Shown here: positions 16,388-55,221 of the stretch, one piece after another
Layout: each line of letters starts with the position of its first letter
Position numbering within the stretch: the stretch's first letter is position 1
Assembly: GCA_964016885.1 (NCBI GenBank)
Contig: OZ024743.1
Coordinates: forward strand, 271,126,001-271,190,000
From: Eledone cirrhosa
Lineage: Eukaryota
Length of the DNA: 64,000 nucleotides
Reading direction: 5' to 3'
The notes under the pieces: model-generated
What the model was told of the DNA's origin: nothing
What the model saw: the letters and a program-made list of their open reading frames with translations, nothing else
Database searches by the model: none
Position numbers and translations under genes: made by a program

Positions 16388-17774
16388 GTGAGTCGTCTCT
16401 ATACTTCTCCCTTCTCTTTCTCCTCCTCCCTCTCACACTACTTCTCTGTCCTCCACTATTCCTTCCACTCCCTCTTTCTCTTTCTTCCTACTTCTGTTCT
16501 CCACTATTTGTTTCCATCCCTCTCTCGTTTTCTCTCTCTCCATCCCTCTCTGTATTTTAAAATATAGATTTGTTTTGGAAGTAGCAATTTAATCATTCAT
16601 GTGCTTTGATATCTTCTGCCCTACCTCTCGCTCTTTCACACAGTATTGACAAGACATATCTATACTCTAGGTAAGATGGTCACTAGTAAAACAACAGCTA
16701 TCTTTAGCTATCTACCTAGCTATCTATCTGCCTGTCTATTTGTGAGGCTATATGTCAGTTTATTTATCTATCTATCTCTCTATCTCTATCAATTTATCTA
16801 TCTTTCTATCTGTCTGTGTATCACCTTCTCTATCAATCTATCTAGTTGTCTATCTATAGCTATCTATTTATATACATTTACCAATGTATCTATCTTTTGA
16901 CATATACACACACACACATATAACCATATTTTTTTTTTTAAATATACGTATATGACTAGCTCGATTAAAATCTTCAATGAAACCTTATGCAATGAAAGCC
17001 TACTACAGAAAATATTGCTCTCACCGGACGATCTCGTTGGAATCATATCTTCAAAACTGCATGGAGTTCTAACAGTGTTATTGGCCCTTCCATAAACAGG
17101 TGAATACTAGTATATATATATACACATGAACGAGACATGGTCACCTGACCAATCTTGCCTCAAATGGGGCAATCCCGTCTAACCCATGCTACAGTGGAAT
17201 ATGGACGTTAAACGATGATGATGATGATGATATACATACACACATATAACAAGACATGTATATATGTTATATATATCTATATAACTAACCTCAAAACTAA
17301 TTTAATAGTAAAGAATATTATTAAACTCAACTGCGATGTTGATGGATGCAAGAATGAGTACTCAATACCAAAGTAGTGTTTAATGATATTCTCTATTGTG
17401 GCTAAGCGGTGAGTCTTATTACTCTGGGGTTTCACCTGTGTACTTACAGGATCTATCAAATAATTTTCCAGAGAAACACGGCTCATCACTTCAGCATAGT
17501 AAAGAATATTGTGTGTGAGGTTGGACAGTCACACAGACATAAACACACACACACACATACTTACAATTTGACTGGGATTAAACACTTATACTATATACAT
17601 ACACTATAACTATAACTTTGTCAGTAACAGTTTTATAGACAATGGCATATTGATTTTATTTAATGAACAGCTGTGATTTGTCTATTTAATAATAATACAC
17701 ACACACTAAATGACACTACTTACAATCTACAGCAAACATTGTAGTAACACCATTTACTTTATTATTATCATTAT

Positions 17775-18712
17775 AAGGGTAGTGGATTGGCAGTATCAGT
17801 AGAGCATCGGATACCCTGCTTTGTAGCAGAGAGTTATGGCTCTTTATGGTCTGAGTTCAAAATCAGACAAAATCCTTTGCAGTATTTAGTTATGGCCCTT
17901 TACATTCTGAGTTCAAATCCCACTTTGGTTAGCTTTGCCTTTCATCCTTTCGGGGTTGATAAAATAAAGTACCTGTAACACACTGGGGTTGATTTAGTTT
18001 GACTTTCTTCTTCCATTTAAATTGCTAGCCTTATGCCTATAGTAGAAACCATACGTCCCTTTACGGTCTGAGTTCAAATCCCGTCGAGGTTAACTTTGCC
18101 TTTCATCTTTACGGGATCGATAAAATAAAGTACCAGTAATGCATTGGGTAATTGCTGGCCTTGTGCTAAAGGTAGAAACAATTATTATTTCCTTGATAGG
18201 GCAGTGGATTGACAGTATCAGTAGAGGGTCAGACGCCATGCTTTGACGCATAGAGTTACAGCCCTTACCATTCTGAGTTCAAATCCCGCTGAGGTTAACT
18301 TTACCTTTCATCCTTACGGGGTCGATAAAATAAAGTACCAGTAATCATCATTTCATTTTACGTCCGCTTTTTCCCTGTTTGCAAGGGTGGGACAGGAACT
18401 GATTCTGGCTTGATTTCTACAGCTGGATGCCCTTCCTAACACCAACCTCGTTTACAGTGAGTGCTGGGTGCTTTTTTGCTGTGGCGCCTACACCACCACT
18501 TTGCAGTGGAATAATATGGACCCCCAGTCCCTATCATCTCATTTCTACAGCTGAGTAAACTGAAATAAAATGTGAAATAAAGTGTCTTGCTCAAGGAAAC
18601 AACACATCACCCGGTTCGAGAATTGAACTCACAACCTTTCGATTGCAAGGCCAATGCTCTAACCACTAAGCCATGTGCCATAATGTACTGGGTAATTGCT
18701 GGCCTTGTGCAC
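17775..18712 (+). mobile_element. Cluster of SINE family A copies
   Basis: Units near 17780, 18055 (partial) and 18200; the last is interrupted by a family B SINE and resumes at 18680. Confidence 0.8.
18344..18679 (-). mobile_element. SINE family B nested in SINE family A
   Basis: Reverse complement of 8330-8671; host SINE gtaccagtaat|...|taatgtactgggtaattgc resumes afterwards. Confidence 0.85.
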
Positions 18713-19342
18713 CCTGTCTGCCCTGTAAGGAAGTAGTGCTGGTGCCATGATAAAAGGTACCCAGTCTGCCCTGTCTGCTCTATAGGGTAGTTCTGGTGCC
18801 ATGGTAAAAAGTACTCTGTCTGCCCTGTAAGGTAGTAGTGATGGCGTCTCAATAAAATGATCCTAGTACAAGCTATAAAGTGGTTAGCATTAGGAAGGGC
18901 ATTCAGCCGTAGAAACCGAGCATGTGAGCAAGATATGGACATCTGACCTGTCTAATATCTATATATGACAGCCTGCTTAACCCATACAAATGTGGAATAT
19001 AGCTGTTAAACAATGATGTGTGTGTGTGTGTGTGTCAGCAACATTAAACAAACATTAGATAATGATAATCACACGCATACACATATATACAGAAAGGTTG
19101 GGTGTAACCCGGAATCACAGAGAATTGTTGATTGTTGTTGGTCTAAGTTAGCCATAATTAGTTGAGAGGAGAGTTTAGTTAGTTCAGTTACAGGGAGGAA
19201 TCTAGAAAAGAATATTTTGATTTCCAGACACATTTTCTATTCCTGATGATGAGGAACACACATGTATGTGCATGTACATACATATACATGTGGATGTATA
19301 TGCACATACATGTATGTATACACATACTTGTATATGTATGTA

Positions 19343-21658
19343 CATCATCATCATCGTTTAACGTCCATCTTCCACGCTAGCATGGGTCTGGACGGGAATT
19401 GTCCCACTTGAGGCAAGATTGGTTGTCTTTGTTCAAGACTATCTGGCGGGTTTTCTACGGCTGGATGCCCTTCCTAACACCAACCACGTTTACAGTGTGG
19501 ACTGGGAGGTTTTTACCGTGTTACCTACACGGCCACATTACAGCGTGGACTGTGTGTTTTTTTGTTGTGACACCTACACGACCTCATTTATTTAGGACTG
19601 GATGTTGTGGTACCAAAATAACTTTACATCGAAAGGGTGGGGGTGGTGGGACGGGGGTGTATTTTGGTTCAGAGGTGCCTACTGACTGTAGTAGGTTTCA
19701 CTTTGTACTTAGGCAAGGCGGATCTTCTGTATTACTGCGTAGCGCCAAATATCTCGGTCCAGTGACATTGTCTTGGAGAGGTGTAAGTGTGTGAGGTCGG
19801 AATTTATCAAGTCGTCCCAGGTTTTTCTGGGTCTGCTTACTCAGTGGCTACCGTCTATTTTGATCGCCCTGCACTTTTTTATACAGCTGTTGTCTTTCAT
19901 GCGCATCACGTGACCATACCAACATAGTCTTCTCTCGAGTAAACAGCATCTGATCCCTCTTATTCCTAATTTCTCACTTAGTTCATTTATGCTTTGCCGT
20001 TCGTGTATATTACTATTACACATCCAACGGAGCATGCAAGCTTCATTCCTCTCCAGTCTGCATAGATCCTCTGCACACAAGGCCCATGTCTCACTGCCAT
20101 GTAACATCGCTGTTCGTATGCAGGCATCATACAGCCTGCCTTTCATTTTTAGAGAGAAACCTTTAGCGGCCAATAGTGGTATAAGCTCTCTGAACTTTTT
20201 CCATCCCGTTTTGACTCTAACTACTGTACTTTCAGAGCACCCTCAACCACTGCTGATTTTGTCACCCAGGTAACGGAAGGTGTCCACTATTTCTATAGAA
20301 CCATCTGTGCAATGGAATGAGCTAGTATTCTGTGGGCATTTGCTGCTACTTATTGCACCTGAGCACCGGCCACATATAAAATCTATATTCTTAGTTAGCT
20401 TACCTGTGATCCCGCTACATCTTTTATGCACCCATACTTTGCATTTGGGACATAAAAGGGAGTTTCTGCCTACTCCTTTCCTACACACTGAGCATGGCCG
20501 TTTCCCAGATGGGACCAGTGCCCTATTTTCCTACATATTAGAACTTTAGTCTTAGACAGGTTAATTTTAAGGCCTTTTGATTCTAGACCATGCTTCCATG
20601 TTTGGAATTTCTTCTCTAGTTCAGCCATTGATTCGGTTATGAGCGTTAGATCATCTGCGTATAGAAGTTCCCATGGGCAGCCGGTCTTGAACTCCTCTAT
20701 TATAGCCTGGAGGGCGATAATAAATAGGAGGGGGCTAAGGACGGGGCCCTGATGAACACCAACTTTTACGCTAAACTCTTCACTATATTCGTTGTTAATT
20801 CTAACCTTGCTGACTGTTTCTTTATACATGGCTTGTATAGCTCTCACAAGCCATTCATCAACACCTAGTTTTCTGAGAACCCACCAGATAATGAGGCGTG
20901 GGACTCTGTCAAAGGCTTTCTCCAAGTCAACGAAAGCTAAGTATAGGGGTTTACTTTTAGCTAGGTACTTCTCCTGTAGTTGTCGTACAATGAAAAGAGT
21001 GTCTGTGGTACTTTTACCTGACACAAACCCGAACTGCATTTCATCTAGATCAATTCGCTCTCTGATTAGTTGCGCTATTACTTTTTCTGTGACCTTCATG
21101 ACCTGGTCAATTAATTTAATGCCTCTATAGTTTCCCCTATCTAGGGCATCTCCTTTACCCTTGTAGCACTTAATGATGATGCTGCTACGCCAGTCCTTCG
21201 GTACGACCCCATTCTGTATGACTTGGTTTACTATCCGGGTGACCATAGTGTGTCCCACCGTTCCAGATTCTTTCAGCATTTCAGCAATTATTTCTGAAGG
21301 CCCAGCCGCCTTGCCCATCTTCATATCTTTGATTGCCTTACTTATTATACTACCTTTAACTTGCACTACTGGTCCCTCTATTGGATCGACGTGGGGGAGA
21401 CTGTCTTTCTCCCATTTATTCTCCTCATTTAGTAGCCTTTCGTAGTGACACTTCCAAGCTACCTTCTTATCAGCATCAGTGATGGCAAGTACACCATCAT
21501 CATTACGGACACACTTCTCCCTGACAATATCACGGTTTTCCTTGACACATTGCCTAGCAATCCTGAACACCTCACGTTTTTGGTCCTCGCGCTGTAGAAC
21601 ATGCTTGAACTTTCTTTCCACTGCTTCCCTTCTTGCGAAGTACACTTGTCTCCTAGCT
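19343..21658 (-). mobile_element. RTE LINE subfamily A, 5'-truncated
   Basis: ORF 20470-21696 carries RT (LYADD); downstream frameshifted PHD and C-terminal pieces; (ATC)n tail at the left end. Confidence 0.95.
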
Positions 21659-22084
21659 GTACATACATGTATATATATATGTACATTCATGCACATGTAT
21701 ATCTATGTGTACATACACATGCATCTATATGTTTGTATACACATAGTTGTATATATTTGTCAGTATATATGCATACATGTATGTGTATGAGTTTACATAC
21801 ACAACCATGTATATCTATGTATGCACATACATATACATGTGCATATACATATTTCATCATCATCACTGTTTTACATCTATTTTCCATGTTGGCATGGGTT
21901 AAACAGCCTTTCTTTTTCTGAAGTTAGTCTAGTCATGTGACCATGTCTCACTCTTATGTTTCATTCTGGTTTGGTTTCTACTACTGGAATACCAACCTCT
22001 TCACTGTGTACTGGATGCATTTTATCTTGGCACCATCACTACCATCTGACATGATGGACCACGTGCATTTTATTATGACCCCAG

Positions 22085-22500
22085 CACTACAGGGTAGACC
22101 AGGTGCATTTTATCATGGCACCAGCACAACCACCTAATATGGACTGGGTACATTTTATCATGGCACCAGCACAACCACCTAATATGGACTGGGTACATTT
22201 TATCATGGCACCAGCACTACCACCTAATATGGACTGGGTACCTTTTATCATGGCACCAACACAACCACCTAATATGGACTGGGTACATTTTATCATGGCA
22301 CCAGCACAACCACCTAATATGAACTGGGTACATTTTATCATGGCACCAGCACAACCACCTAATATGGACTGGGTACATTTTATCATGGCACCAGCACAAC
22401 CACCTAATATGGACTGGGTACATTTTATCATGGCACCAGCACTACCACCTAATATGGACTGGGTACATTTTATCATGGCACCAACACTACCACTTGACAG
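22085..22500 (-). repeat. 42-bp minisatellite (~10 copies) derived from the RTE/SINE 3' UTR module
   Basis: Unit cattttatcatggcaccagcacaaccacctaatatggactgggta; lies within a minus-strand RTE-tail element starting near 21855. Confidence 0.9.
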
Positions 22501-23487: not shown

Positions 23488-23518
<31 letters not shown>

Positions 23519-23905: not shown

Positions 23906-24044
23906 AAATTATATATATATACTAGACAACCCGTGACCTGTTGGGTCACGTTTCCTTAAAAATATTTTTTTTAAATAATTTTTGAATAATGAAAATATAC
24001 ACAGACATGTATGTAATGTAAAATGAACTTGGAAGGCAAATATG

Positions 24045-24078
<34 letters not shown>

Positions 24079-26956: not shown

Positions 26957-27018
<62 letters not shown>

Positions 27019-32679: not shown

Positions 32680-33715
32680 TATTTGCTTTTAAAAAGAAAT
32701 CTGTATATATTTCCTCTTTGGATAATACTTCATCTCAGTATGTTAGTGCCTTTCAGTGAAGAGAACATTGGGTTGAAGCAGTTTATTTTTGTGGGGAGTT
32801 TGACTTGTTCCTAGGTGTGTAATTAATTATGTTGCTCAGAGCTAAAAGAAAGATATTTTCCATACAGCTATAACTAACCTTAACAGTATTTTTATTGAAC
32901 AGCTTGTGATACTTGTAGTTGATAAAGAATTGTTTTCTAATCAACACTAGAAAGCATATCTATCTGTTGGGGATTACAATTCATATTAAAGTGTGTTTAC
33001 GTTTCTGTTCCTGGTTTTGTTATTTTATGTGTTTCATCCATTGCTTGTAATTTTTCTATAAATTAAACATTGAAGCTCACATCTCATTATGTAATTGGTA
33101 TGTATACCCTTGATATTATTCTCACAGCTGTGTCTAATCTGTGAGAGTGTGTATCATTAAGCTATCAATAATTATTTCTCTATACTATCCTTATACAGTT
33201 AACTATAGCTACCATCTCTGCCAGCTGTTATCTGTGGAGACTTCTACTCCAGATGTGCAATACATCATGAGAGAAGGTAGAACATTCATTTGAAATAATA
33301 GAAATATTGAATTCTTCTTTCTTTAAGGACTACTAAAATCACTAAATCAGAACTCAATATATATACTAATTTGGTTTGTGGCAACCTGTCCAACACTAGC
33401 TAATAGGGAAAACAGACATTAAATGATGACAATATGTGTGTGTGTTACAATTTGAGCCCATGCAAACCATTGCCACAACTATGTGTAATATATATATATA
33501 TAAATGGAAAAAATGAAATTTCATTTCTCGCTCTTAGTACGGCTGATACATAAATATAAGTATGTACACGTACATACATATATGTATACAGACGTACCGT
33601 AGTATGTATATATATATACATACATGCACACATATATATATATGTACGTATGGGTTTACCGAACATTTATTATAATGTTCGGTTTGTTTGTAAACAAACA
33701 GCCCGAATTAAGCCG

Positions 33716-33809
33716 TACAGTGTTCAGCAACCATCGTTGCCCTTTTGTTCAACACTGACAAAGGAACGATGAACTACTTTCTAGCTTATTAGCTATCATC
33801 AGCACCGTA
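33716..33809 (-). ncRNA. Hammerhead-like motif with long stem III and atypical cleavage junction
   Basis: Minus strand: tacggtg CUGAUGA tagct-aata-agcta GAAA gtagt...gttgcU gaa cactgta. Confidence 0.5.
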
Positions 33810-33957
33810 TACCTTCCTGTCAGTCTATTGAACGTTTGAAAGTATATATATATATATATATATATATATAGGTAAGTTATTCCGGGTTGAATTGGAGGTA
33901 ACCACAGTAAGTAAGGTACTCAATACATAGCAGAGTATAAAAGTTTTAATATAGATG

Positions 33958-34008
33958 AGATTCTACAGGACTAGAACTGTTTCATACTTTAGAAATCATC
34001 AGGAATCT
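33958..34008 (-). ncRNA. Type I hammerhead ribozyme motif (weak stem II)
   Basis: Minus strand: agattc CUGAUGA tttctaaagtat GAAA cag-ttctagtc-ctG UA gaatct. Confidence 0.55.
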
Positions 34009-34454
34009 GGCTTTCCAAAAATAAATGTAGTGGTATTTATATCTTTTCAGGTGGTAGGAGAGGGTGGGGAGTGGGATGGGTGGAGGTCATTGGTTGAAAG
34101 AAAAGGGAATTCATTAAAAGCTAATTCTTTAAGTCTATAGTTTTATATTTAGAGTGACAAGGCAGAAAGGATTCTATAAACAGGTTCAGAATGGGGTGCC
34201 TCTCCTTATTTTTAAGTTTCTCTTCAGCTAACAATGCCTATATTTCAGGTGTCTATAAGGTGGTTGTGGGTCAGTCATGGTTGATGGATTTAAAGAAAAG
34301 GGAAATTCTTTAAAAGCTAATTATTTAAAGCTCTACTTAGAGAGACAAAGGCCAAGAGAATTCTATAAACAGTTCAAAATATTGGGTGTCTATCATTATT
34401 GTCATATTTCTCTTAAGCTATATTCCAGGTGTCAACAGACACATTCACATACAT

Positions 34455-34518
<64 letters not shown>

Positions 34519-34635
34519 CATATACACATATATATATACACATCCATACATACATATATATATATATAGCCGAAATACGATTCTCGCTAATTTATATTTA
34601 TATATATATATATATAAATATATATACACATACAA

Positions 34636-34686
<51 letters not shown>

Positions 34687-34765
34687 TATATATGTTTATG
34701 TATATATGTGTGTATATATATATATGTGTTTGTATGTGTGTATATATATATATATGTATGTATGT

Positions 34766-35100
34766 ATCATCATTTCATTTTACGTCCGCTTTTTCCCTGC
34801 TTGCAAGGGTGGGACGGGAACTGATTCTGGCTTGATTTCTACAGCTGGATGCCCTTCCTAACACCAACCTCATTTACAGTGAGTGCTGGGTGCTTTTTTG
34901 CCATGGCACCCCCACGTCCAATTTGCAATGGAATGATAGGGACCCCAGTCCTATCATCTCATTTCTACAGCTGAGTAAACTGGAGCAATGTTAAATAAAG
35001 TGTGTTGCTCAAGGAAACAACACATCACCCGGTCTGAGAATTGAACTCACAACCTTTCGATTGCAAGGCCAATGCTCTAACCACTAAGCCATGTGCCTCC
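34766..35100 (-). mobile_element. SINE family B
   Basis: Full-length reverse complement of 8330-8671. Confidence 0.88.
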
Positions 35101-35135
<35 letters not shown>

Positions 35136-35573
35136 AATGTGTCTGTTGACACCTGGAATATAGCTTAAGAGAAATATGACAATAATGATAGACACCCAAT
35201 ATTTTGAACTGTTTATAGAATTCTCTTGGCCTTTGTCTCTCTAAGTAGAGCTGTAAAGAATTAACATTTAAAGAATTTCCCTTTTCTTTAAATCCATCAA
35301 CCATGACTGACCCACAACCACCTTATAGACACCTGAAATATAGGCATTGTTAGCTGAAGAGAAACTTAAAAATAAGGAGAGGCACCCCATTCTGAACCTG
35401 TTTATAGAATCCTTTCTGCCTTTGTCACTCTAAATATAAAACTACAGACTTAAAGAATTAGCTTTTAATGAATTTCCTTTTCTTTCAACCAATGACCTCC
35501 ACCCATCCCACTCCCCACCCTCTCCTACCACCTGAAAAGATATAAATACCACTACATTTATTTTTGGAAAGCT

Positions 35574-35624
35574 AGATTCCTGATGATTTCTAAAGAATGA
35601 AACAGTTCTAATCCTGTAGAATCT
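35574..35624 (+). ncRNA. Type I hammerhead ribozyme motif
   Basis: agattc CUGAUGA t-ttc-taaa-gaa-t GAAA cag-ttctaatc-ctG UA gaatct; 6-bp stem I, GUA cleavage triplet, U-U at 10.1/11.1. Confidence 0.62.
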
Positions 35625-36980
35625 CATCTATATTAAAACTGTTATACTCTGCTATGTATTGAGTACCTTACTTATAGACTAGACAGATTAGAGTATTTAT
35701 GAATGTATAGCTCATATGTTCCCATTTCACTAATTATATATATATATGTATGTAAAAATACCAGCTAAAATACAGTTCCATCTGAGCAAGGTACGACACA
35801 GCCAGCTGGCCAAACTTGTCTCATGACATGGGCGACCTGTCTAACCCATGCAAGCATGGGAAAATAGACATTAAACAGGGATGATGATGATGATATATAA
35901 AATTACTGAAATGGGAACATATGAGCTTATACATTCATAAATACTCCAACCTGGTCTAGTCACGGACAATAACAACACATTCAGCCTATGCCAGCATAGC
36001 AAACAGACATAAAATAATGATGGGGGGGGGGGGGGCGTTGTAACAGTAGTGATCCTTGGTGGTTGGTGGTTGTGTCTAGAACTAACACGAATGAATGTTA
36101 GTGTCCATTTCCAGTGGAATGGAAGAAAAATATAAATTCCAAGTATTGCCTGAAGCATTCTATAAATTATTGATATGAATAATTAGTAACAATCAGAAAT
36201 TTTTCTTTGTTTTTCGGTTTGTTTGGTTTTTTTTTATTATTATCTTGGGACATTAATGACATTATCACCTTCTTGGCAAGCTGTGTTAATTATGGATATA
36301 TTTAATGTCACAGAAATAACTGATCTGTTCTGATTCTTCTCTTTTTTTTATTTTTTACATTTGTATCTACATTTGAATAGGAGATCTAATATGTCCCCTT
36401 AGTTAACAGCACCACTAGCTGGCTCTTGAATGGCTCTAGCAGAGTCCACTCTGTTTCCACTAGGGTGGTTTACTTACCATCACCACCACACTCATCATCA
36501 TCACCACCACCCCAGCAGCAGAAGCAACAGCAGTCACTTGCTTGGGTGCCTATTGTGGATTCCATTCTGTTGCTAGTATTTGGATTAATCTCTAGTGTCT
36601 GAGCATCATCACCTTCATCACCATCATTATCACTATATCATCGTCACCACCTTTACATTGCCACAGCCATCATCATCATCATCATCATTTTTCCATGTTA
36701 ACATAGGTTAGACAAAATAATTCAGAATAATTTTTTTATGTTAATGTCTAGCTTCTTACTTAAGGAGCCCCTTCAGTTGTGTTTCCTCCTCCCTCCCTCT
36801 TCCCACCAATCTTAAAATTCAGGACCCTTGAGTTGTATTTCTTCCTTCCCCAGATGTGAGTTACAAGTCGGCGTAGCCACATATCTCTTCATCCCTCTTA
36901 ACTTTTGAAAATCATGAAACTTATGAAACCGGTAAAGTTATAAGTTATTGTATTTAAAACTTCTTAAAGACGCCATTTGC

Positions 36981-37028: not shown

Positions 37029-37492
37029 TATATATATATGTGTGTGTGTGTGTGTGAATTTGCTAACAGGAAAAGCAGATGTTAAAAACGACAGTGATAT
37101 ATATATATATATAACGAAGGAAGTGTGGTAGGGAACCTATATATATATATAATATGTACACACACACGTGTGTGTGTCTACATACTATCTTGGATGTCTA
37201 TTGTCAATATATTTTGAATAATTTGGGTTAAAACTGTATCCATTATTTATTTTGTATGTTGAAGTAGGTTACTTTATACAGCTTTAACATTGAATCATTT
37301 CTGTGTGAGGTATATATTTTTTTCTCTCTCTCTTTCCAACCTCCTCACTCTCTCTCTGAACTTTGCTCTTTCCTGATGAAGGACTCATGTCCAATACGTT
37401 GATACATTATTATTTTTTTCTTTATCTTCATTCCCAAGTGTGAATTTGTGGTTTTGCATCTCTGTCTCTTTTATTCCTATACTATATATATA

Positions 37493-44240: not shown

Positions 44241-45495
44241 AAATATGTGGGTGAAGAAGAAAAGTATGAACACAGGCACAGCTGAGTGGTTAAGAAGTTT
44301 GCTTTGCAATAATGAGTGGGTTCAATCCTAGTGTGGGGCAACATGGTGAAGCTTGTTTCTCTGAGCCTCAGGGTGATTAATATGATTTGTAAATTTGATT
44401 GCAAACATGAAAGATAAAATTTTCATGACTCTAATTGTTATACTGGCCATAAAAGTACATGACACCCCTACTGGCTCACCATCTACTCATAACAAGGAAC
44501 AGTTGCAATATACTACACTAAATAACACAACACAAAACTAAACATTAGGGAACAATACAACTATACTCTACAGAATTCCCCACAAAAATAGATATTGAAC
44601 TTATGACCTAATGATTTAACAGAAAATATCGAAATGCAGGTTTTCACAATTCAAATGTTTATAGTAAACATGCTGCTGTGAACATTTCCAGTAAACTAAA
44701 GTGAAGACTTTAATTTTACAATTTTACATGTGATGCAAATGTAGTTTCATGTGGTACAGGATTTTAAGAGTTAATTTTAAGAGCACTACTCTTACCACAG
44801 TGCTAAAAATTAACATAAAGAAAATGTACACATAGTCATAAACAAAAATAAATACCTTACTGATATTGTATAAATATAATGATCAAGAATTCAAATTTGA
44901 GTGGTTGTATCCATAAAAATCACTTTAACCTAGCCTACTAGTAAGAGACTACAACAAATGTTAACATCACTTCATCATAAAGATGAGACCATAAAAGTTT
45001 AGAAATGTTGCTTGAATTTAGGAACTTCACTGTTCCAAACAAACTGCAAGGTAGACTTATGAAAAAAAAAATCATTAAAAAAAATAAAACAGTTTTATAT
45101 TTTAATAGAACATGCATAAATCACCATATGCTTGTTTTTCAATGCTGGCTTGGGTTAGGCAAATCATTACAGACCAAGTCAGTACTTATTCAGAGCTACT
45201 TTCATAGACCAGACATAGAAGTAAGGGGTATGTCTCATACATTCTAGGTTTATATATATATATATATATATATATCATCATCATTTTTCATCAGCTTTTT
45301 TTTTGGTGGCATGCATATAGATATATATACATATGTGTACATATATATATATATATATATTAAGTATATGTTGGTTGTTTACCAACACCTCAGTATGCAG
45401 ATTGGAGCACTCGACGAAGTGTGCAGGTTGGTTTGGTTACTCCGGAGTAATGTAAAATAAATAAGTCAAATATTTAAAATTTGGCTTCGTTTATT

Positions 45496-45550
45496 ACTGC
45501 TATATATATTTCGGTGATAGCCATCTTTGGCTGTGACCTCTTCAGGCAGT
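45496..45550 (-). ncRNA. Minimal type I hammerhead ribozyme with canonical core
   Basis: Minus strand: actgc CUGAAGA ggtcacagcca-aaga-tggctatcacc GAAA U-AUAU-AUA gcagt; 5-bp stem I, G10.1-C11.1, palindromic stem III loop, AUA triplet. Confidence 0.78.
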
Positions 45551-45964
45551 CCGAATTAGTGTGGTAGAGACGAGTACACATGTTGTTGAGGTGTTTAACT
45601 TTGTCAATACTCTGATATGCCCAGTTCCTAGTTGGGTTGTTGTTTCTATGAGGAACTGGAATCATATGAATTTAAACAAACGAATTTCAGCATCAAAGGA
45701 CATCCTCTCCTCCCATTGGTCAGTTGTGAGAACATTCCTCAGTCAAAATCTATAGAAATTCTTTCTGAGGCGAGGCATTCTGTAGTGGTTGTTTTTGTTA
45801 TTGTTAAGTAAATCTGACCTCTACCCTTATGTTGGTAGTGGTGTTGGTGCTGGGGTCAGATTTAAGTCCTGCTGCTGTTGATTTTAGAAGGACCTGTGTG
45901 TGTGTGTGTTGGCATCTATCCTGCCACCATTTCTCGTGGTGGTGGGGGGGGGGGGTGCCAAGCA

Positions 45965-46705
45965 TATGAAGAAATAAAAGGCAATAGGATGAAGAAAATA
46001 AAAAAAAAATAGAATGAAATGAAAAGGTAAAACACTAAAAAATACAAATAAAATAAAGAAAAATAGAGTAAAATAAAATAAGATAGAATAAAATAAAATA
46101 AGATAAAATAAAATAATATAAGATAATTGTTTCTACTTTAGGCACAAGGCCAGCAATTAACCAGTGCATTACTGGTACTTTTTTTATCGACCCCGTAAGG
46201 ATATAAGCAAATAAGTAAACAAAAAAAAAAATGATAAAATGGTAGAAGGAATAGGATGATAAAAGAATAAAATAAGATAATGCATATGAAGGAATAAAAG
46301 GCAATAAAATGAAGAAAATAAAAAAATAAAATGAAAAGGTAAAAGACAAAAAATTAAGAATAAAATAAAGAAATAAAGAAGTAAAGTAGAGTAAAATGAA
46401 ATAAAATAATATAAAATAACATAAAATAATATAATTGTTTCTGCTTTTAGCACAAGGCCAGCAAATACCCAGTGCATTACTGGTACTTTATTTTATCGAC
46501 CCCGTAAGGATGAAAGGCAAAGTTAACCTCGGGGGGGATTTGAACTCAGAATGGAAAGGGCCGTAACTCTATGCGTCAAAGCATGGTGTGCGACCGTCTA
46601 CCGATACTGCCAATCGACTAATATAATATAAGCAAATAAGTAAACAAAAAAATGATAAAATGGTAGAAGGAATAAGATGTTAAAAAAATAAAATAAGATA
46701 TTCAA
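45965..46705 (-). repeat. (AAAAT)n-rich tract with SINE family A copies and local duplication
   Basis: SINE at 46430-46615, partial copy 46125-46201; block atataagcaaataagtaaacaaaaaa..tggtagaagga duplicated at 46201 and 46626. Confidence 0.75.
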
Positions 46706-47109
46706 ATAAAATGTGTGTGTTATAACCAATCTCAAAGTTAGAAAGATTTGGAAGATGTTGGCCAAATTAGAAAGGCTGTGTCAGAATCAATCTCTAGACT
46801 ATCATGGTGTGTTGTGTATTAAGAGCAGGTGAGACAAGGGTGGAATGTAATAGCCCATAACCCGGGTGTCGAAATCTGGAACTGCGGAGGACTGCAGTTC
46901 CCATATAGGCATGGAGCTCATATTCGTGTCTGTCAACTCACATTGTTCCAAGCACACACGCACAGGCACAGGTCCAGTTGCATCCCCTCTGCACACACAC
47001 ACACACATACACATACATACACCCACCCACATGCCCACCCACACACATGTAAGTATCTGTGCATGTACAATCTTAAATAACAGTATCCATGTATGGACAT
47101 ATGCATAGG

Positions 47110-49341
47110 TATGTGTTGTCACAGGGGTTGATCGGGGCAGTGGTATGGTGGGAATGCTGTCCTTGAAGCTAGAGGGAAGTTCCCATCCCAATGTTTTGTT
47201 CTTATCCGTATAGCTTGAGGAAGGTCCCGGCCCTGAGGTGTCTGCTCGTCCCAGATGGGTCTCTATGGCTTGAGGGGAGTTCCAACCTATTGTGTTGTTA
47301 CTCTCCATATAGCTTGAGGGAGGTCCGGCCCAGAGGTATCAACATGTTCTGGAGAAGTCCTTATAACTTGAGGGGAGTTCACATCCCAGTGTGTTGTTAC
47401 TGTCCATATAGCTTGAGGAAGTCGGTTCTGAGGTTTATCAGGCGGCTTCCACCTCTTAGTATCTCGAGGGTCTCACTCAGACATAGTTTGCAGATGCCAG
47501 ATCCCCTTTTATCAGGTGGTACTTTCCTGATTATGGACCATGCTAGAGGGTACGGGGGTCCTGTCCAGCTTAAGCTTCCAGATCAGGTTGGAAAGAGCCG
47601 TACTTTTCCTTTTGATCTCCTTGTTGAAGGAATGGCGATGGTTATACCAACGGTCTTTAAAGCTCGTTGATGTGGCTCCTATGTAAAGGTGTTCAGAGTT
47701 GGGGGTTTTTACTCTACATCCGTATATTAGGTTCTTCCTAAGACATTCATTACTAAGGGGGCATAATTCGGGGTTTCTGCAGTTGCAGAAGGTGGTCGAC
47801 CTCTGTGTGCCTAGTGTGGGGTTCCCATTACGTGTTACATGGTGGCCCTCCCCCGGGCCCGGTGGGGGTCTCTGGGTCTGTTTGAGTTTCTTGGGTGGGC
47901 ACTGGGTCCACCCTTCTCTCCTTCCACATGGTTGTGCTGGGTGCTTACATTGCCAGCTTCTAGTTGTGTGTGGTTTTTAAGCCTACTCCTGTTGGGCCAG
48001 ATTTCTCGTGGTGGAATACGAGAGCTTCACAGTGTATCTGTTGAAGATCTTGTGGTATCTATGGTCCCTCGGGAAGCATTTATCAAGTGCTCCAAAGAAT
48101 GATCGGGCCAAGCTGTTCTTTAGGGCCGCTGAGTAGGGTGGGTTGTACCACGGGATTTTTCTGCATCTATTCCTATGTGGGTGGGTTGAGGGCGCCGTGG
48201 GCTGTTGGAGAGTTATTGGGTTGCTAGTGGTTCCCGCATTGTTGCTTCCCCTTTGGGCGCTATATGTATTGCTATCTCCTCTGCCCGAATCTGTGGGGTG
48301 GTTGTTGCCCACGCCAGGAGATCCACGATGGGATGGTCCCCCTTCACCCCACACGTGTCGTGCGGTTGGGGTCGTCAGGCCCAGGGTGGTTGGTATCACC
48401 CCTGAGACTGCTACTTGTATTGGGTTTCTTCCCATGGTTACGCGTACTCGTCACCATTGCCCATGTGGTGGTGTCAGACTGCCTGTATTGTTATGGTTCG
48501 TCCCCTCCTGGACAACGCGGGTGGGGGCATCCGTTGGGCCATCCCCATCCCGGCACCTCGGGCTATATGTTATATTTTGGCCATGTGCCGCCTTATTTAA
48601 AGCTGTGTTGTAATATCCCGCGTTGTTATCAAAGATTTCCTTATTTGCGGACAGGCTGGAGATCCTGTCCGAGACACTCTTCACCACGCCCTTGGTTATG
48701 GATCTAGGGTGGTTTGACTTGGCGTTAACATACATAAGTTTCTCGTTGGGCTTGTGGTAGGGGTAGTATTGCTCGGTGTTCAGGTTTAGGGTGGTGTCTA
48801 GGAAGTTAACTACCTTTCTATTTGGGTCTAGTTCGATACTGAGCCCCTGGTTCTTAAAGAAATGGCGAATACGCCTCTTCATTCTCTCCACCATAGTGGT
48901 GCTGTGGTCATAGACTGGGAATAGAGTATCGTCACGATATAATCCGCCGCCCAGGCAGGGGATTTCATCTTTTATCTGCTTCAGCAGGAAGAACCCAACC
49001 AGGTCCATTGCCTGTGCTGAGTCGCTGGAGCCCATCGTGATGTCAAAGTTATTTGGCCAATCACTCCTGGTCCAAAGGTCTCCATCGAATGGATTAAGGT
49101 CTTTCGTGCGGCGTGGATGATGCTCACCTCCTCTCGGGTTAGGTCCGTATTGGACATCGCTAAAAATAGGGCCTTATTGAGTACTATGGGTAAGATTGAG
49201 GAGTAGTAGCCTGCGATATCCAGTTGGATAAAGCTGGTCCTGCTTTTCCCAGGTAGTATCTTAAACCATTCTATTACCTCTCCCGTGCATGACCATTGTT
49301 GTAATTTAGTTTTTTTTCCGAAGCTTGGGCAAAACCCTATC
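47110..49341 (-). mobile_element. Penelope-like element (RT plus GIY-YIG), 5'-truncated, disrupted
   Basis: DITMGSSDSAQAMDLVG, GLYRDD, VNFLDTTLNL, SNHP, IPWYNPPYS, FCNCRNPELCPLSNECL..LIYGC..YIGATSTSFKDRWYNH; short tandem tatagcttgagg repeats at 47205-47420. Confidence 0.9.
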
Positions 49342-49343
49342 TA

Positions 49344-49387
<44 letters not shown>

Positions 49388-49421
49388 AGTATATATATAT
49401 ATCTATATATCTATATATCTA

Positions 49422-49455
<34 letters not shown>

Positions 49456-49530
49456 AGTATATATATATATCTATATATCTATATATCTAGTATATATATA
49501 TATATATAGTATATATATATATCTAGTATA

Positions 49531-49577
<47 letters not shown>

Positions 49578-49597
49578 TATATATATATATATATCTA

Positions 49598-49646
<49 letters not shown>

Positions 49647-49649
49647 CTA

Positions 49650-49692
<43 letters not shown>

Positions 49693-49695
49693 CTA

Positions 49696-49736
<41 letters not shown>

Positions 49737-49739
49737 CTA

Positions 49740-49778
<39 letters not shown>

Positions 49779-49808
49779 CTAGTATATATATATATCTAAT
49801 ATATATAT
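49342..49808. repeat. (TA)n tract punctuated by TCTAG
   Basis: Unit (TA)n-tctag; same tract resumes at 51970-52450 beyond the RTE. Confidence 0.9.
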
Positions 49809-51971
49809 ATCAGCATCATCGTTTAACGTCCCTGTTCCACGCTTGCATGGGTTTGGACGGGGGTTTTCCCACTTGAGGCAAGAGTGGTTGTCTTGCTCGC
49901 ATAGGACTGTCTGGCGGGTTTTCTACAGCTGGATGCCCTTCCTAACACCAACCACATTTACAGTGTGGGGCTGGGAGGTTTTTACCGTGTTGCCTACACG
50001 GCCACATTACAGCGTGGACTGTCTGGCGGGTTATCTACAGCTGGATGCCCTTCCTAACACCAACCACATTTACAGTGTGGGAATGGGAGGTTTTTACCGT
50101 GTTGCCTACACGGTCACATTACAGCGTGGACTGTGTGTTTTTTTGTCGTGACACCTACACGATCTCGTTTGTTTCGGCCTGGATGTTGTGGCACCAACAT
50201 AACTTTGCATTGAAGGGGGCGGTGTGGATGGGGTGGGACGGGGGTGTATTTTGTTAGAGATGCCTACTGACTAGTAGGTTTTACTTTGTATTTAGGTGAG
50301 GCGGGTCTTCTCTGTTACTGAGTACCGCCAGAGGTCTCGGTCCAGTAACATTGTCTTGGAGAGGTGTAAGTGTGTGAGGTCGGAATTTATCAGCTTGTCC
50401 CAGGTTTTCCTGGGTCTGCCTACTCCGTGGCTACCATCTATCTTTATTGCCCTGCACTTTGTTATACAGCTGTCGTCTTTCATGCGCATCACGTGACCAT
50501 ACCAACGTAGCCTTCTCTCGAGTAAACAACATCTGATCCCTCTTATTTCTAATTTTTTCCTTAGTTCGTTTATGCTTTGCCGTTCACGTATATTACTATT
50601 ACACATCCAGCGGAGCATGCAAGCTTCGTTCCTCTCTAGTCTGCGTATATCCTCTGCACACAATGCCCAGGTCTCACTGCCATGTAACATTGCTGTTCGT
50701 ATGCAGGCATCATACAACCTGCCTTTCATTTTTAGGGAGAACCCTTTAGCGGCTAATAGTGGTATAAGCTCTCTGAACTTCTTCCATCCAGTTCTGTCTC
50801 TAGCTAATGTACTTTCAGAGCACCCTCCCCCACTGCTGATTTTGTCACCCAGGTAACGGAAGCTGTCCACTATTTCTATAGAACCCTCTGCGCTATTGAA
50901 AGAGTTAGTATTTTGTGGGTACTTGGTGCTACTTATTGCACCAGAGCACCGGCCACATGTAAAATCTGTGTTCTTAGTTAGCTTACCTATGATCCCACTA
51001 CATCTTTTATGCACCCATACTTTGCATTTGGGACATAAAATGGAGTTTCTACCTACGCCTTTCCTACACACTGAGCATGGCCATTTCCCGGAGGGGACCG
51101 GCGCCTTATTTTCTTTCCTACAAACTAGAACTTTAGTCTTAGCCAGGTTAATTTTAAGGCCTTTTGATTCTAGGCCGTGCTTCCATGTTTGGAATTTCTT
51201 CTCTAGCTCGGCCATTGATTCAGCTATGAGCGTTAGATCATCTGCGTATAGGAGTTCCCATGGGCAGCCGGTCTTGAACTCCTCTGTTATAGCCTGAAGG
51301 GCAATAATAAATAGTAGGGGGCTAAGAACAGAGCCCTGATGGACACCAACTTTTACGCTAAACTCTTCACTCTATTCGTTGTTAATTCTAACCTTGCTGA
51401 CTGTTTCTTTATACATGGCTTGTATGGCTCTCACAAGCCATTCGTCAACACCTAGTTTTCTAAGAGCCAACCAGATAATGGAGCGGGGGACTCTGTCGAA
51501 GGCTTTCTCCAAGTCGACAAAAGCTAAGTAGAGGGGTTTACCTTTAGCTAGGTACTTCTCCTGTAGTTGTCGTACAATGAAAAGAGCGTCTGTGGTACTT
51601 TTGCCTGACACAAACCCGAACTGCATTTCATCTAGATCAATTCTCTCTCTGATTAGTTGCGCTATTACTTTTTCCGTGACCTTCATGACCTGGTCGATTA
51701 ATTTAATGCCTCTATAGTTACTCCTATCTAGGGCGTCTCCTTTACCCTTGTAACAGTTAACGATGATGCTGCTACGCCAGTCCTTCGGAACAACCCCATT
51801 CTGTATGACTTGGTTTACTATCTGGGTGACCATGGTGTGTCCCACCGTACCGGAGGCTTTCAGCATCTCAGCAACTATTTCCGAAGGCCTAGCCACCTTA
51901 CCAGTCTTCATATCTTTGATTGCCTAGCCGCCTTACCCGTCTTCATATCTTTGATTGCCTTACTTATTATA
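49809..51971 (-). mobile_element. RTE LINE subfamily A inserted in the (TA)n-TCTAG tract
   Basis: ORFs 51372-51911 and 50292-51215; ~114-bp duplication in the 3' UTR and ~35-bp duplication at the 5' end. Confidence 0.95.
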
Positions 51972-52231
51972 TATATATATATATATATAGTATATATATA
52001 TATCTAATATATATATATATATATAGTATATATATATATCTAATATATATATATCTAGTATATATATATATATATATATATCTAATATATATATATCTAG
52101 TATATATATATATATATATATATATCTAATATATATATATATCTAGTATATATATATATATATATATATATATCTAATATATATATATATCTAGTATATA
52201 TATATATATATATATAATATATATATATCTA

Positions 52232-52265
<34 letters not shown>

Positions 52266-52267
52266 AG

Positions 52268-52298
<31 letters not shown>

Positions 52299-52358
52299 GC
52301 TATATATATATATCTAGTATATATATATATATATATATCTGCTATATATATATATCTA

Positions 52359-52392
<34 letters not shown>

Positions 52393-52717
52393 AGTATATA
52401 TATATATATATATATCTAGTATATATATATATATATCTAGTATATATATAGAAGGATTTTAATGTATACAGTTTAGTTAAAAGGAATTTATTGACACGTG
52501 TTTCTATAACAGTTACATAACCTGAAAACAGCTGCTATCTACAAAGTATTAGTTATGCAGACATTCAATATTTCAATGTTATTATCAACTGTCATTTCAT
52601 TGGAATAATTTTACTGAGGACCTGTTTGGTTTTTATAGAGAATATTAGGAGGGAGGGGTGAAGTTGTTAGAAGAATAGTTGAGGGAGTGGTTTTTTGATA
52701 GCAGTGAGAATTTTTGG

Positions 52718-52932
52718 TGGCAGTGAGTAATTAGATTCCCATCTGTTTTGACATTTTTATAGAATATATTATTGGTTATTTTTCTAAATCTATAGAAGGA
52801 TTAGAGATAGTATAAAACCAACCACACATATCTATACTATCTCTAATCCTTCTATAGATTTAGAAAAATAACCAATAATATATTCTATAAAAATGTCAAA
52901 ACAACAGATGGGAATCTAATTACTCACTGCCA
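52718..52932. repeat. Near-perfect inverted repeat, ~97-bp arms, 18-nt loop
   Basis: tggcagtgag...gagatagtata / tatactatctc...ctcactgcca; one 3-nt indel. Confidence 0.92.
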
Positions 52933-54004
52933 ATTGATCCAATCAGTGGAACAGCCTATCCGTAAATCTACCGTGCAAACAACTGAGAATTCGACAGATA
53001 CACATTGTTCTCTGGGAGATTCAAGATGACACCGAATGTGACAAGACTGGCCCTTCGAATCACAAGTACAACACATTTTTTCCAGCTGAGAGGACTGGAA
53101 CAACATGAAATAAAGTGTCTTGCTCGAAGACACACCATGTCATAAGGGTGAGAGTTCGATTCCTGGCGGCACATTGTGTCAGAAAAAGTAACATTCATGG
53201 GATGAACAAATGAAAGCAATCCTTTTACCTCATCAGCCACTCTCTAATCAATGCAGTTTCATGCATAAAGACAGGATTGCATAATATTGAACCTAGGTTG
53301 CACAAAATCTGGAAGAAGCCACTGGAAAGTGGCTTATGAGGCAACAAACAACCTAGAGACAGGAAAATAATGATGATGCCTTTTGACTTGGATAGCAAAA
53401 GGAGTCCATAAGAAAATATCAATAAAAGTTCATACATATATCTGTTTATTGAACATTCTCTTTTCTCTGTCTTACCCTTACCCTTACCTCTCTCTCTACA
53501 TACCTATGTCTCACCCTTACCTTTCTCTCCCTCTCTCCACATACCTATGTCTCACCCTCTCCACATACCTATGTCTCACCCATACCCCTCTCTCTCTACA
53601 TACCTATGTCTCACCCATACCTCTCTCTCTCTCCACTCTCCATACACCTTATCTACCCCCCTCCCTTCTCATTGTTTGTCATAAAGGTGAAAGGTCAACC
53701 ACTGATTTGTGTCTAGTTATATAATGCATTAAGAGCTAACATAACATAAAGTAGTGTTTGTGATGGTGGTGGTGGTGGTGGTTTAGTTCTAGTGTTGTGG
53801 TCGTAGTGTTGGTAGTGTTGGTATTATAGTAGTGATAGATTTTTAGTGGTAGTGCCATGGTAGTTTTGTAGTGGTATTTTAATGATAGAAGTAGTAGTAA
53901 TGTTATAGTAGCAGTGGTGTGTTTGTATTAGGGACAGAGGAGAGAGTGGTGGTGATAATGATTTAGTAACAACTTCAAGGACAGCAACAATTATTACTAT
54001 TATT

Positions 54005-54680
54005 AAGGGTGGTGAATTGGCAGAACCGGTAGAGCGTCTGATTGCATGCTTTGCAACATATAGTTACAGCCCTTTACATTCTGAGTTCAAGTCCCACCAA
54101 GGTGAGCTTTACCTTTCATCCTTACGGGGTTCATAAAATAAAATACCAGTAACGTACTGGGGTCAATTTAATCGACTTTCCCCTCCCCAAAAACTGTTGA
54201 CCTTGTACCTAAATCAGAAACCATTATTATATATAATCAGTAATACACTGGGTAATTGCTGGCCTTGTGCCTAAAGTAGAAACAATTATTATATATAATG
54301 ATAATAATAATTCTTTCTACTTTTGGCACAAGGCCAGCAATTATATCAGTACATTACTGGTACTTTATTTTATCGACCTCGTAAGGATGAAAGTCAAAGA
54401 GAACCTCGACGGGATTTAAACTCAGACCACAAAGGGGTGTAACTCTATGCTGCAAAGCATGGCGTCCGACCTTCTACCGATACTGCCAATCCCCCAATAA
54501 TAATAATTGTTTCTACTTTTGGCACAAGGCCAGCAATTACCTAGTACATTACTGGTACTTTATTTTATCGACCCCGTTTTCTAAAAAGACACAAAGCCAG
54601 AAATTTGGGGAGAAGTGTTAGTCCATTAAATTGAGTTAGTATTGTACTGGTACTTTATCAAACCTGTAAGGATGAAAGGC
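54005..54680. mobile_element. Cluster of SINE family A copies in both orientations
   Basis: Plus copy 54005-54285; minus copies 54310-54492, 54505-54577 and a fragment near 54640-54680. Confidence 0.8.
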
Positions 54681-55130
54681 CAAATCAAATAACTTTGTCA
54701 ATATTAAGCTGAAAGGTTTTAACTGAAATATGAACACTTTGAAATTAAGTGAGTTAGTATCAAAAGAGTTAAGTGGAACATGTCAATTTCCATATAATAA
54801 TGTAACATGAATACACTGAATAGAAAATCTCAATAGCCTAGCAATGTATACAAAGAAAAAGACATTATTTAATGCTTATTTCAATTATAGTTAAATGTAT
54901 ACAGACAGTCAAGTAACATTAATTGTTTCTAACGCTTGAAAAGTTCTGTAGAAGAAATTAACAGCTTCTGTTACCTTGGTGGCATACAGCAGTGGTGGTC
55001 GGTGCTCTGAAAGCATATTAGTCAGAATGGGATCAAGGTGTAAAAAGTTCTAGTAGTCAGAATAAATACAGAGTGGGAAAAGTATATATATATAAACTAG
55101 TAATAGGTGCAATTGGATTCTACATGTGAA

Positions 55131-55221
55131 ACATATTTGAGGAGCTTTCGATTCCAGAGTCAGGGACGAACGTGATCGATCGTTCTTCGAGCTGATCGGC
55201 CGTGAAACATATGTAATATGT
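55131..55221 (+). ncRNA. Variant type I hammerhead motif with extended stem II
   Basis: acatat UUGAGGA gc..(long hairpin)..gt GAAA C-AUAU-GUA atatgt; U3 instead of C3. Confidence 0.5.

What the first reader, a model, noticed from the sequence alone, without database searches (positions are those of the whole stretch)
17405..55221. Up to eight hammerhead motifs from mostly unrelated sequence families in one presumed TRAP1 intron
Seen: hammerhead cores with different stems at 17405-17490(-), 33716-33809(-), 33958-34008(-), 35574-35624(+), 37372-37400(+), 45496-45550(-), 52488-52608(-) and 55131-55221(+). Most lie in short non-coding blocks next to (TA)n, and several have a similar gagtactcaatac/gagcactcga motif shortly 3' of the ribozyme. 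None adjoins a recognisable RT. Inference: a diverse population of small non-autonomous ribozyme-bearing retroelements that target TA tracts and may be mobilised by Penelope-like elements such as 47110-49341. This is my best candidate for an undescribed system here. Several motifs are clearly decayed.
Basis: partly seen in the sequence, partly recalled or inferred. Interest (0 to 1): 0.75.

Follow-up and report, generated by a model that had tools for sequence, protein, structure and literature searches.

The report
Penelope ends and their hammerhead parasites
The eight self-cutting-RNA motifs in this intron are an ordinary sample of very common jumping-gene debris: three of the seven families are the tail ends of Penelope-type jumping genes, a fourth probably is, and three have no gene in any copy examined and likely hitch-hike on the same enzyme, two of them carrying a small hairpin that likely marks where copying starts.

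Summary
The eight sites are real type I hammerheads from seven repeat families in one TRAP1 intron. Two pass a strict descriptor and one was misparsed. They beat shuffles (2 against 0.01-0.03), but the density is ordinary here: 21 in 400 kb elsewhere.

Three families (45496, 52488, 55131) are 3' ends of Hydra-clade Penelope-like elements (PLEs). 45496 is the end of the window's own element, 49341-45365. 37372 is probably an old Neptune-type end. 33808 is a tandem 430-480-nt retrozyme. 33958/35574 (one family) and 17458 showed no ORF in any copy examined.

It is shared by ORF-bearing Hydra families and two ORF-less families, and lies between the two places where copies end.

PLE hammerheads, (TA)n targeting and retrozymes as PLE derivatives are published. 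I did not find the hairpin in the papers read. This scan had already noted it, and a D-like retrozyme, on other DNA of this genome. No RNA evidence was obtained.

The parts
16242..16387 (+). TRAP1 exon. The host intron starts at 16388 and runs past the window end; the next exon is at about window-equivalent 69316.
17332..17458 (-). Family C copy: about 150-bp ORF-less hammerhead-plus-tail element. Core decayed, stem I 5' strand lost, tail hairpin mutated (starts 17379).
17467..17510 (+). Inverted arm of the family C insertion.
33503..33843 (-). Family D copy, a partial unit of a 430-480-nt tandem retrozyme. Minimal hammerhead at 33766-33808 with a mutated palindromic stem III.
33871..34451 (-). 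Family A left arm with the long tail: hammerhead 33958-34008, tail hairpin 33918-33936, ends at (TA)n. A TA/TG simple tract continues 5' of it.
35101..35674 (+). Family A right arm: intact hammerhead 35574-35624 with U.U at the base of stem II, tail hairpin 35646-35664. Nearest relative of the left arm (97.9%).
37335..37470 (+). Family G copy: old 5'-truncated PLE end with a dead hammerhead remnant at about 37368-37404; probably Neptune-type.
45365..49341 (-). Family B: broken, 5'-truncated Hydra-clade PLE. RT and GIY-YIG remnants at about 47400-49330 with several frameshifts and stops; long 3' UTR interrupted by tRNA-derived repeats; hammerhead 45496-45550; tail hairpin 45409-45448; ends at (TA)n.
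52451..52813 (-). Family E copy: 5'-truncated end of a young (99%) Hydra-clade PLE. Hammerhead 52488-52608 with a long stem II and a core mutation. An inverted piece follows at about 52813-52931.
55098..55272 (+). Family F copy: inverted tail end (55098-55119), then a 5'-truncated end of an old Hydra-clade PLE. Hammerhead 55131-55221 with a branched stem II and a C3U core mutation.

Best explanation
The eight motifs are the 3' ends of Penelope-like retroelements piled up in (TA)n tracts: families B, E and F are truncated copies of protein-coding Hydra-clade elements, G is probably an old Neptune-type end, D is a tandem retrozyme, and A and C show no ORF in any copy examined and are likely copied in trans by the Hydra-type enzyme. 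Shown by the calls: the ORF links, the TA junctions, the two-armed inverted insertions, and two preferred 3' ends either side of a covarying hairpin (RCTC-NNN-loop-N'N'N'-TH-GAGY) in A, B, C, F and a further ORF-bearing family (H3). Inferred mechanism, by analogy to the anole element studied in vitro (PMC11167929): the RT/GIY-YIG protein binds the RNA at the hairpin and nicks both strands of a TA tract. It starts reverse transcription at two sites, one 0-20 nt before the hairpin and one about 30-50 nt after it, giving a long arm with the 'tail' and a short inverted arm. Each insertion ends in (TA)n and so offers a new target, which would explain the nested clusters. The hammerheads with short palindromic stem III likely cut only as dimers or with protein help, processing multimeric transcripts. 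Copies that keep the whole ribozyme would come from uncut or religated RNA.
For: ORF links:
- E: 16 of 24 other loci carry the GIY-YIG ORF in sense within 1.5 kb upstream. A 646-aa RT-EN reading frame lies upstream of the ribozyme in L212.
- B: 3 of 24 other loci. L217 is colinear with the window from the ribozyme to about 48830 at 72-97%.
- F: 5 of 11 walked loci hold a decayed Hydra-type EN, and 3 of those 5 also hold the window's ribozyme block downstream in sense.

Hydra features: CxCX5C in the window element, E, H3 and H4; CxxC and CxH around the EN end. RT motifs resemble Hydra-1_Obim as printed in the supplement (compared by eye).

D: four head-to-tail units in L255 (spacing 435, 476, 481) and two in L256 (430), with no ORF.

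A: no sense ORF linked in three overlapping samples of 29, 28 and 30 loci. The longest copies start at a sharp (TA)n boundary in 22 of 30 loci and share nothing beyond it, whereas 17 of 19 E copies run through their internal TA tract.

C: in 40 distinct loci (24, 30, 14 shared) same-strand homology stops at the base of stem I.

Hairpin: in 23/30 A, 21/25 B and 12/25 C tails against 0 in upstream controls and at most 0.1 in shuffles. Inner stems covary (TGC/GTA, CGG/TCG, TAC/GTA, TGC/GCA, CAG/CTG, CAA/TTG, TGT/ACA). It is in 9 of 32 hammerhead clusters downstream against 2 of 32 upstream. It is also visible at the end of a published Hydra consensus in the passage shown.

Two ends: A 42 and 58 of 109; B 16 and 33 of 52; F 37 and 16 of 60; H3 31 and 10 of 49.
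Against: - E, a young and active Hydra-clade family, has no such hairpin (0 of 25), nor have D and G. The hairpin is therefore not required by all Hydra enzymes, and D's helper is not identified.
- The hairpin scored in only 2 of 25 F tails, equal to the upstream control. Most F copies end before it.
- By free energy the hairpin appears in the best fold only for the window's B tail (z -1.6), not for A or C.
- None of the 11 window stretches folded is significantly more stable than shuffles (z from -1.75 to +0.77).
- C's long ends are spread out (45 of 60 between +25 and +62), not sharp.
- Each genome search scored only 40 of 200-3600 candidates, so a rare ORF-bearing parent of A or C could be missed. 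F showed no ORF in its first 24 loci and turned out to have one.
- The protein queries covered only Hydra- and Neptune-type ORFs.
- G's link rests on one of three loci at E=1e-4.
- No cleavage, binding or expression was tested.
Confidence: 0.72

Rival explanations
1. All seven families except the tandem D are simply 5'-truncated ends of autonomous PLEs. The parents of A and C exist or existed but were not sampled, and A's fixed 5' end reflects truncation at an internal (TA)n tract by microhomology with the target.
For: F looked ORF-less in its first 24 loci and proved ORF-linked after two walks. E has the same layout as A (TA tract, TG-rich tract, unique end) with an ORF in front. PMC4209133 reports that most minimal hammerheads are solo copies probably from truncated PLEs. 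A head-to-tail junction of A was found only twice in the genome search.
Against: 17 of 19 E copies pass their internal TA tract, while the 30 longest A copies share no upstream sequence and no sense ORF. A is young (93-98%), so a parent should still be recognisable. None of 40 C loci extends past stem I, whereas F and G show graded 5' ends.
Confidence: 0.2
2. One reading: every block is a small non-autonomous ribozyme element that amplifies independently, forming an undescribed system.
For: A, C and D behave this way in the samples. At least 32 hammerhead clusters occur in 1.8 Mb of fetched loci, most with untested parentage.
Against: B, E and F are ORF-linked. The class is published.
Confidence: 0.04
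3. The motifs were kept in this intron for a host function, such as cutting TRAP1 pre-mRNA.
For: One intact motif (35574) lies in the sense of TRAP1.
Against: Density is at or below the genome background. Six of eight copies carry substitutions relative to their families. Five of eight are antisense to the gene.
Confidence: 0.03

Closest known systems
Hydra clade of C-terminal-endonuclease Penelope-like elements (Craig et al. 2021, PMC8557442; section 11, 12 passages and supplement look-ups seen; includes Hydra-1_Obim, 2507 bp, (TA)n)
   Same: RT then GIY-YIG, CxCX5C linker, CxxC and CxH motifs, hammerhead near the 3' end, insertion into (TA)n, inverted 5'-truncated arms and a one-sided tail. 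Fits families B, E and F.
   Different: The 3' UTRs here are long (0.9-1.9 kb) and stem II is often oversized (up to about 90 nt). The passages read describe neither the tail hairpin nor ORF-less partners.
Minimal hammerheads of metazoan PLEs (Cervera and de la Pena 2014, PMC4209133; parts 1-2 of 4 read)
   Same: Type I topology, short palindromic stem III, many sequence families per genome, mostly solo copies, pairs on opposite strands 100-700 bp apart.
   Different: Here several families have U.U or other mismatches at the base of stem II instead of the conserved G10.1-C11.1, and A has a closed 4-bp stem III.
Metazoan non-LTR retrozymes (Cervera and de la Pena 2020, PMC7229834, parts 2-4 of 6 read; Li, Clavereau and Pollet 2026, 10.64898/2026.07.22.740005, parts 1-3 of 5 read)
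   Same: Non-coding tandem units of a few hundred nt with a type I hammerhead, many monomers, proposed to be PLE derivatives mobilised by PLEs. Fits D. The axolotl Amex2 motif also has U.U at the base of stem II.
   Different: D has a minimal rather than canonical hammerhead. A and C are dispersed monomers with two-armed PLE-type insertions rather than tandem arrays. No cephalopod was among the groups named in the parts read.
Poseidon element of Anolis in vitro (Frangieh et al. 2024, PMC11167929; parts 1-2 of 4 read)
   Same: Cuts both strands of AT-rich DNA, starts reverse transcription at two internal sites in a stem-loop, and the stretch between them is the genomic tail. The hammerhead is protein-assisted and not needed for insertion.
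   Different: Different clade. Its start region lies inside the ORF and is AC-rich, whereas here the hairpin is in the non-coding tail and is shared across unrelated families.

Membership tests
Type I hammerhead ribozyme | CUGANGA and GAAA cores, stems I-III, NUH site | tested here: met
   Met by 35574 and 45496 in the window and by relatives in families A-F. The other six window copies carry substitutions or truncations. G's sampled members mostly read GATA.
Type I hammerhead ribozyme | Self-cleavage of the RNA | not testable with these tools
   No assay and no RNA run.
Hydra-clade PLE (families B, E, F) | Single ORF, RT followed by C-terminal GIY-YIG, upstream of the hammerhead | tested here: met
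   E: 646-aa frame in L212. B: window remnants and L215-L217. F: decayed EN only.
Hydra-clade PLE (families B, E, F) | CxCX5C linker; CxxC and CxH near the EN end; no CCHH | tested here: met
   Window CNCRNPELC and E CNCTYPDNC, CKLC, CRH. Absence of CCHH judged by eye. F's linker seen only in decayed DNA.
Hydra-clade PLE (families B, E, F) | N-terminal RWK and DKT motifs | tested here: inconclusive
   No match in three E loci, which are probably 5'-truncated.
Hydra-clade PLE (families B, E, F) | Insertion into (TA)n | tested here: met
   25/25, 24/25 and 17/25 loci have (TA)4 within 200 nt.
Hydra-clade PLE (families B, E, F) | Placement in the Hydra clade on an RT tree | not tested
   Only compared by eye with the Hydra-1_Obim text in the supplement.
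Non-LTR retrozyme (family D) | At least two consecutive head-to-tail units with a type I hammerhead | tested here: met
   L255 has four units and L256 two in a row. Whether each unit's core is intact was not scored.
Non-LTR retrozyme (family D) | No coding capacity | tested here: met
   No linked PLE ORF in 24 loci and 3 longer regions. The unit joins directly to the next unit.
Non-LTR retrozyme (family D) | Expressed as linear and circular monomer RNA | not testable with these tools
   No RNA run available to lay.
Non-LTR retrozyme (families A and C) | Tandem units | tested here: not met
   A: 2 head-to-tail junctions in a genome pattern search, a lower bound. C: none in 40 loci; L059 repeats the tail only. 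They work like PLE parasites but are not filed as retrozymes.
Neptune-clade PLE (family G) | Neptune-type RT/EN ORF upstream of the hammerhead | tested here: inconclusive
   One decayed RT-thumb match, 30% identity, E=1e-4, in 1 of 3 walked loci.

The most novel reading that the evidence does not exclude
Hydra-clade Penelope elements have true SINE-like parasites. Family C (about 150 nt: one hammerhead plus the tail) and family A (about 1-1.5 kb, young, thousands of copies) are dispersed monomers. They recruit the enzyme through a bulged hairpin conserved from coral to cephalopod elements, which sets the two reverse-transcription start sites. C's 5' end, fixed at the base of stem I, would then mean that an intact hammerhead is selected for mobilisation in vivo although it is dispensable in vitro. 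The genome would hold on the order of 100,000 intact-looking hammerheads.
Probability: 0.4. Interest if true: 0.62.

Novelty: new member of a known kind. Interest (0 to 1): 0.4.

Why it matters
As a locus it is ordinary: a typical sample of this genome's most abundant TA-targeting repeats. Its value lies in two open questions about Penelope-like elements. One is what RNA signal the enzyme recognises and why insertions have a one-sided tail. The other is whether the hammerhead matters for mobility. A short hairpin shared by coding and non-coding families, and a 150-nt natural minimal element, give small, defined RNAs for the in vitro assay already published for the anole element. The density measured here (21 motifs in 400 kb) also suggests that repeat annotations of such genomes miss a very large ribozyme population. 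The 2026 Octopus vulgaris repeat annotation (PMC13282606, term search of the main text) does not contain 'ribozyme', 'hammerhead' or 'retrozyme'.

Tried and rejected
- Rfam scans: no hammerhead rows among those shown; the hits are simple-repeat and palindrome artefacts.
- The AGTACTCAATA stretch inside the Penelope copy near 49185 is not the tail motif; it is coding sequence at RT motif A.
- The 99-bp repeats at 47172-47421 are not hammerheads; they repeat the end of the ORF.
- A Neptune-type family found upstream of some A copies was tested as A's parent and rejected. Only the seed locus and one short match of 30 continued into A's body in sense, and the family has its own end at (TA)n.
- A first walk upstream of G returned only CA-rich low-complexity hits; the second gave 3 loci.
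- A long pattern for family C found 1 match, which says only that the family is diverged.
- The end count for D (2230 rows) was swamped by simple repeats and dropped.
- The automatic count of distinct C loci (50) contained duplicates and misplaced anchors. I use the manual count of 40 and not its column fractions; its inverted-arm count (35 of 50 rows) is approximate.
- The control junction search gave 0 but its gap was too short for a known case, so it is a weak control.
- Sequencing runs: no RNA holder listed; no reads were laid.
- Look-ups of earlier findings by sequence for A and F returned nothing.
- Literature searches. The hairpin was not found in the listings or in the parts read. The bioRxiv preprint's supplements were not seen and most of the Craig supplement was not read; either could bear on the claim that the hairpin and ORF-less partners are undescribed.
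- PMC6962438 (two passages) reports 235 Rfam hammerhead loci in giant squid.
Full report
Setting. The window is C4:271126001-271190000 of a 3.0-Gb genome. It is TA-rich and full of RTE-type LINE fragments. It is probably a cephalopod; that is my inference and was not tested. A TRAP1 exon lies at 16242-16387 (PDB TRAP1, E=1.2e-10). The next in-frame exon is about 5.3 kb beyond the window, and HSP90-family exons lie just upstream. All eight sites are therefore in one intron of about 53 kb.

Are the motifs real? Rfam lists no hammerhead among the rows shown. A descriptor for type I topology finds two intact motifs, 35574(+) and 45496(-), against 0.01 per window in 100 block-wise dinucleotide shuffles. 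Each of the eight blocks was then searched in the genome. First-look candidates were 3560 (A, 33958/35574), 2635 (B, 45496), 1226 (C, 17405), 1883 (D, 33716), 1347 (E, 52488), 1235 (F, 55131) and 269 (G, 37372). These are not copy numbers; only 40 were scored each time and 25-30 fetched. Aligned copies show the hammerhead of each family and the window copy's damage. Two parses change. At 33716-33809 the ribozyme is a minimal one ending at 33766. At 17405-17490 the supposed core is an inverted copy of the 3' flank.

Is the cluster unusual? No. Forty evenly spaced 10-kb regions (30 of them on the four largest contigs, so not a true random sample) hold 21 motifs, or 3.4 per 64 kb. Shuffles of them hold 1, 0 and 0. 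Several of the 21 are paired arms of one insertion. Seventeen of 21 have (TA)4 within 200 nt downstream, against 25% of random positions. Scaled up this is of the order of 100,000 motifs, a rough figure. Across 1.8 Mb of fetched loci, 266 motifs fall into 32 clusters.

Families that are ends of coding elements. E copies are 99% identical. 16 of 24 other loci carry a GIY-YIG ORF upstream in sense, and L212 has a 646-aa RT-EN frame with an inverted ribozyme-bearing arm in front. B copies link to an ORF in 3 of 24 other loci. That ORF is 85-95% identical to the window's own endonuclease remnant, and L215-L217 are colinear with window 45340-48830. F showed no ORF in its first 24 loci, but two walks upstream reached decayed Hydra-type endonucleases in 5 of 11 loci, 3 of which also hold the ribozyme block. 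These ORFs have the CxCX5C linker and the CxxC and CxH motifs that PMC8557442 (section 11) gives for the Hydra clade, which inserts into (TA)n and always carries a hammerhead; the supplement lists an octopus member. RWK and DKT were not found in three probably truncated copies. G is old (70-88%) with graded 5' ends. One of three walked loci has a weak Neptune-type RT match upstream (E=1e-4).

Families without an ORF. D forms head-to-tail units of 430-480 nt, up to four in a row, with inverted arms and no ORF. It meets the sequence criteria for a non-LTR retrozyme. A is a 600-bp body with an internal duplication, preceded by a TG-rich simple tract. No sense ORF was linked in three overlapping samples of 29, 28 and 30 loci. 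One locus had an E element ending upstream of it, which is nesting. A's longest copies begin at a (TA)n boundary (22 of 30 by pattern), beyond which lie assorted other TA-ending elements, while 17 of 19 E copies pass their own internal TA tract. Head-to-tail A junctions were found only twice. C is about 150 bp and old (77-89%). In 40 distinct loci its homology stops at the base of stem I, often against an inverted arm. The searches favour copies with a whole ribozyme but do not disfavour longer copies. For A and C a rare parent cannot be excluded, as F shows.

The shared motif. It is present in 23/30 A, 21/25 B, 12/25 C and 2/25 F tails, and in 0/25 each of D, E and G. Upstream controls give 0 except F (2), and shuffles give at most 0.1. 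Inner stems differ between families yet pair. A further ORF-bearing family (H3) has it in 2 of 8 tails printed. The same pattern can be read at the end of a published Hydra consensus in the supplement passage. Copies end at two places, 0-20 nt before the hairpin and about 30-50 nt after it (A 42 and 58 of 109; B 16 and 33 of 52; F 37 and 16 of 60; H3 31 and 10 of 49; C 14 and a spread of 45 of 60). Free-energy folding supports the hairpin only for B, so the case rests on covariation and position. Notes e1-10318805 and e1-9815236, seen in the same turn, report the same hairpin on other DNA. They are not independent evidence, and I did not test the second hairpin that one of them claims.

Mechanism. 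In the anole Poseidon element the protein cuts both strands of AT-rich DNA and starts at two internal sites in a stem-loop; the stretch between them is the tail, and ribozyme mutants still insert (PMC11167929). By analogy (inferred), the Hydra-type protein binds the hairpin, primes from both nicks in a TA tract and writes a long and a short arm. Any RNA with that tail, coding or not, would be copied. Every insertion ends in (TA)n, which would explain the nesting seen at 33503-35674, where D, both A arms and a tRNA-derived repeat share one tract. The ribozymes with palindromic stem III likely act as dimers on multimeric transcripts (PMC4209133).

Comparison and verdict. PLE hammerheads found mostly as solo copies, the TA-targeting Hydra clade, and retrozymes as non-autonomous PLE derivatives are published. 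The finding is thus a mixture of new members of known kinds. What I did not find in seven searches and the parts read is the tail hairpin and dispersed SINE-like partners of Hydra elements; the scan has already noted the hairpin elsewhere in this genome. Interest 0.4.

Noticed in passing
window 56221-57911 and 22102-22493: Tandem arrays of 48 bp (35.5 copies) and 45 bp (8.7 copies). They are related to each other and to the 3' UTR of the RTE-type LINEs in the window.
   Followed up: no
window 1824-2709 and 53983-54595: A tRNA-like repeat of about 230 bp in tandem, and a palindromic cluster of the same repeat that gives the false mir-550 match. It also interrupts the Penelope 3' UTR near 46100-46630.
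   Followed up: no
L221-L250: A young (97-98%) Neptune-type PLE family ending in (TA)n, 1489 first-look candidates. No family-wide hammerhead turned up in the descriptor scans.
   Followed up: partly
L222, L324, L360, L361: A further TA-ending family with the tail hairpin pattern and a palindromic region upstream; no hammerhead or ORF seen.
   Followed up: no
L059: About 12 tandem copies of only the last 60 nt of the family C tail, separated by short TA runs, suggesting repeated re-initiation at one site.
   Followed up: no
loci L001-L438: At least 32 hammerhead clusters, many with stem II inserts of 30-100 nt and U.U or other mismatches at its base. The young E subfamily has a CCGAUGA core while some relatives have CUGAUGA.
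   Followed up: partly
window 5029-5505 (-): A 158-aa frame that looks like a hAT-type transposase fragment (recalled resemblance, not tested).
   Followed up: no
L219 and L258: Hydra-type family H3 has the tail hairpin and two ends, but its 3' region reads CAGAAGA at the expected core position and was not picked up by the descriptor.
   Followed up: no
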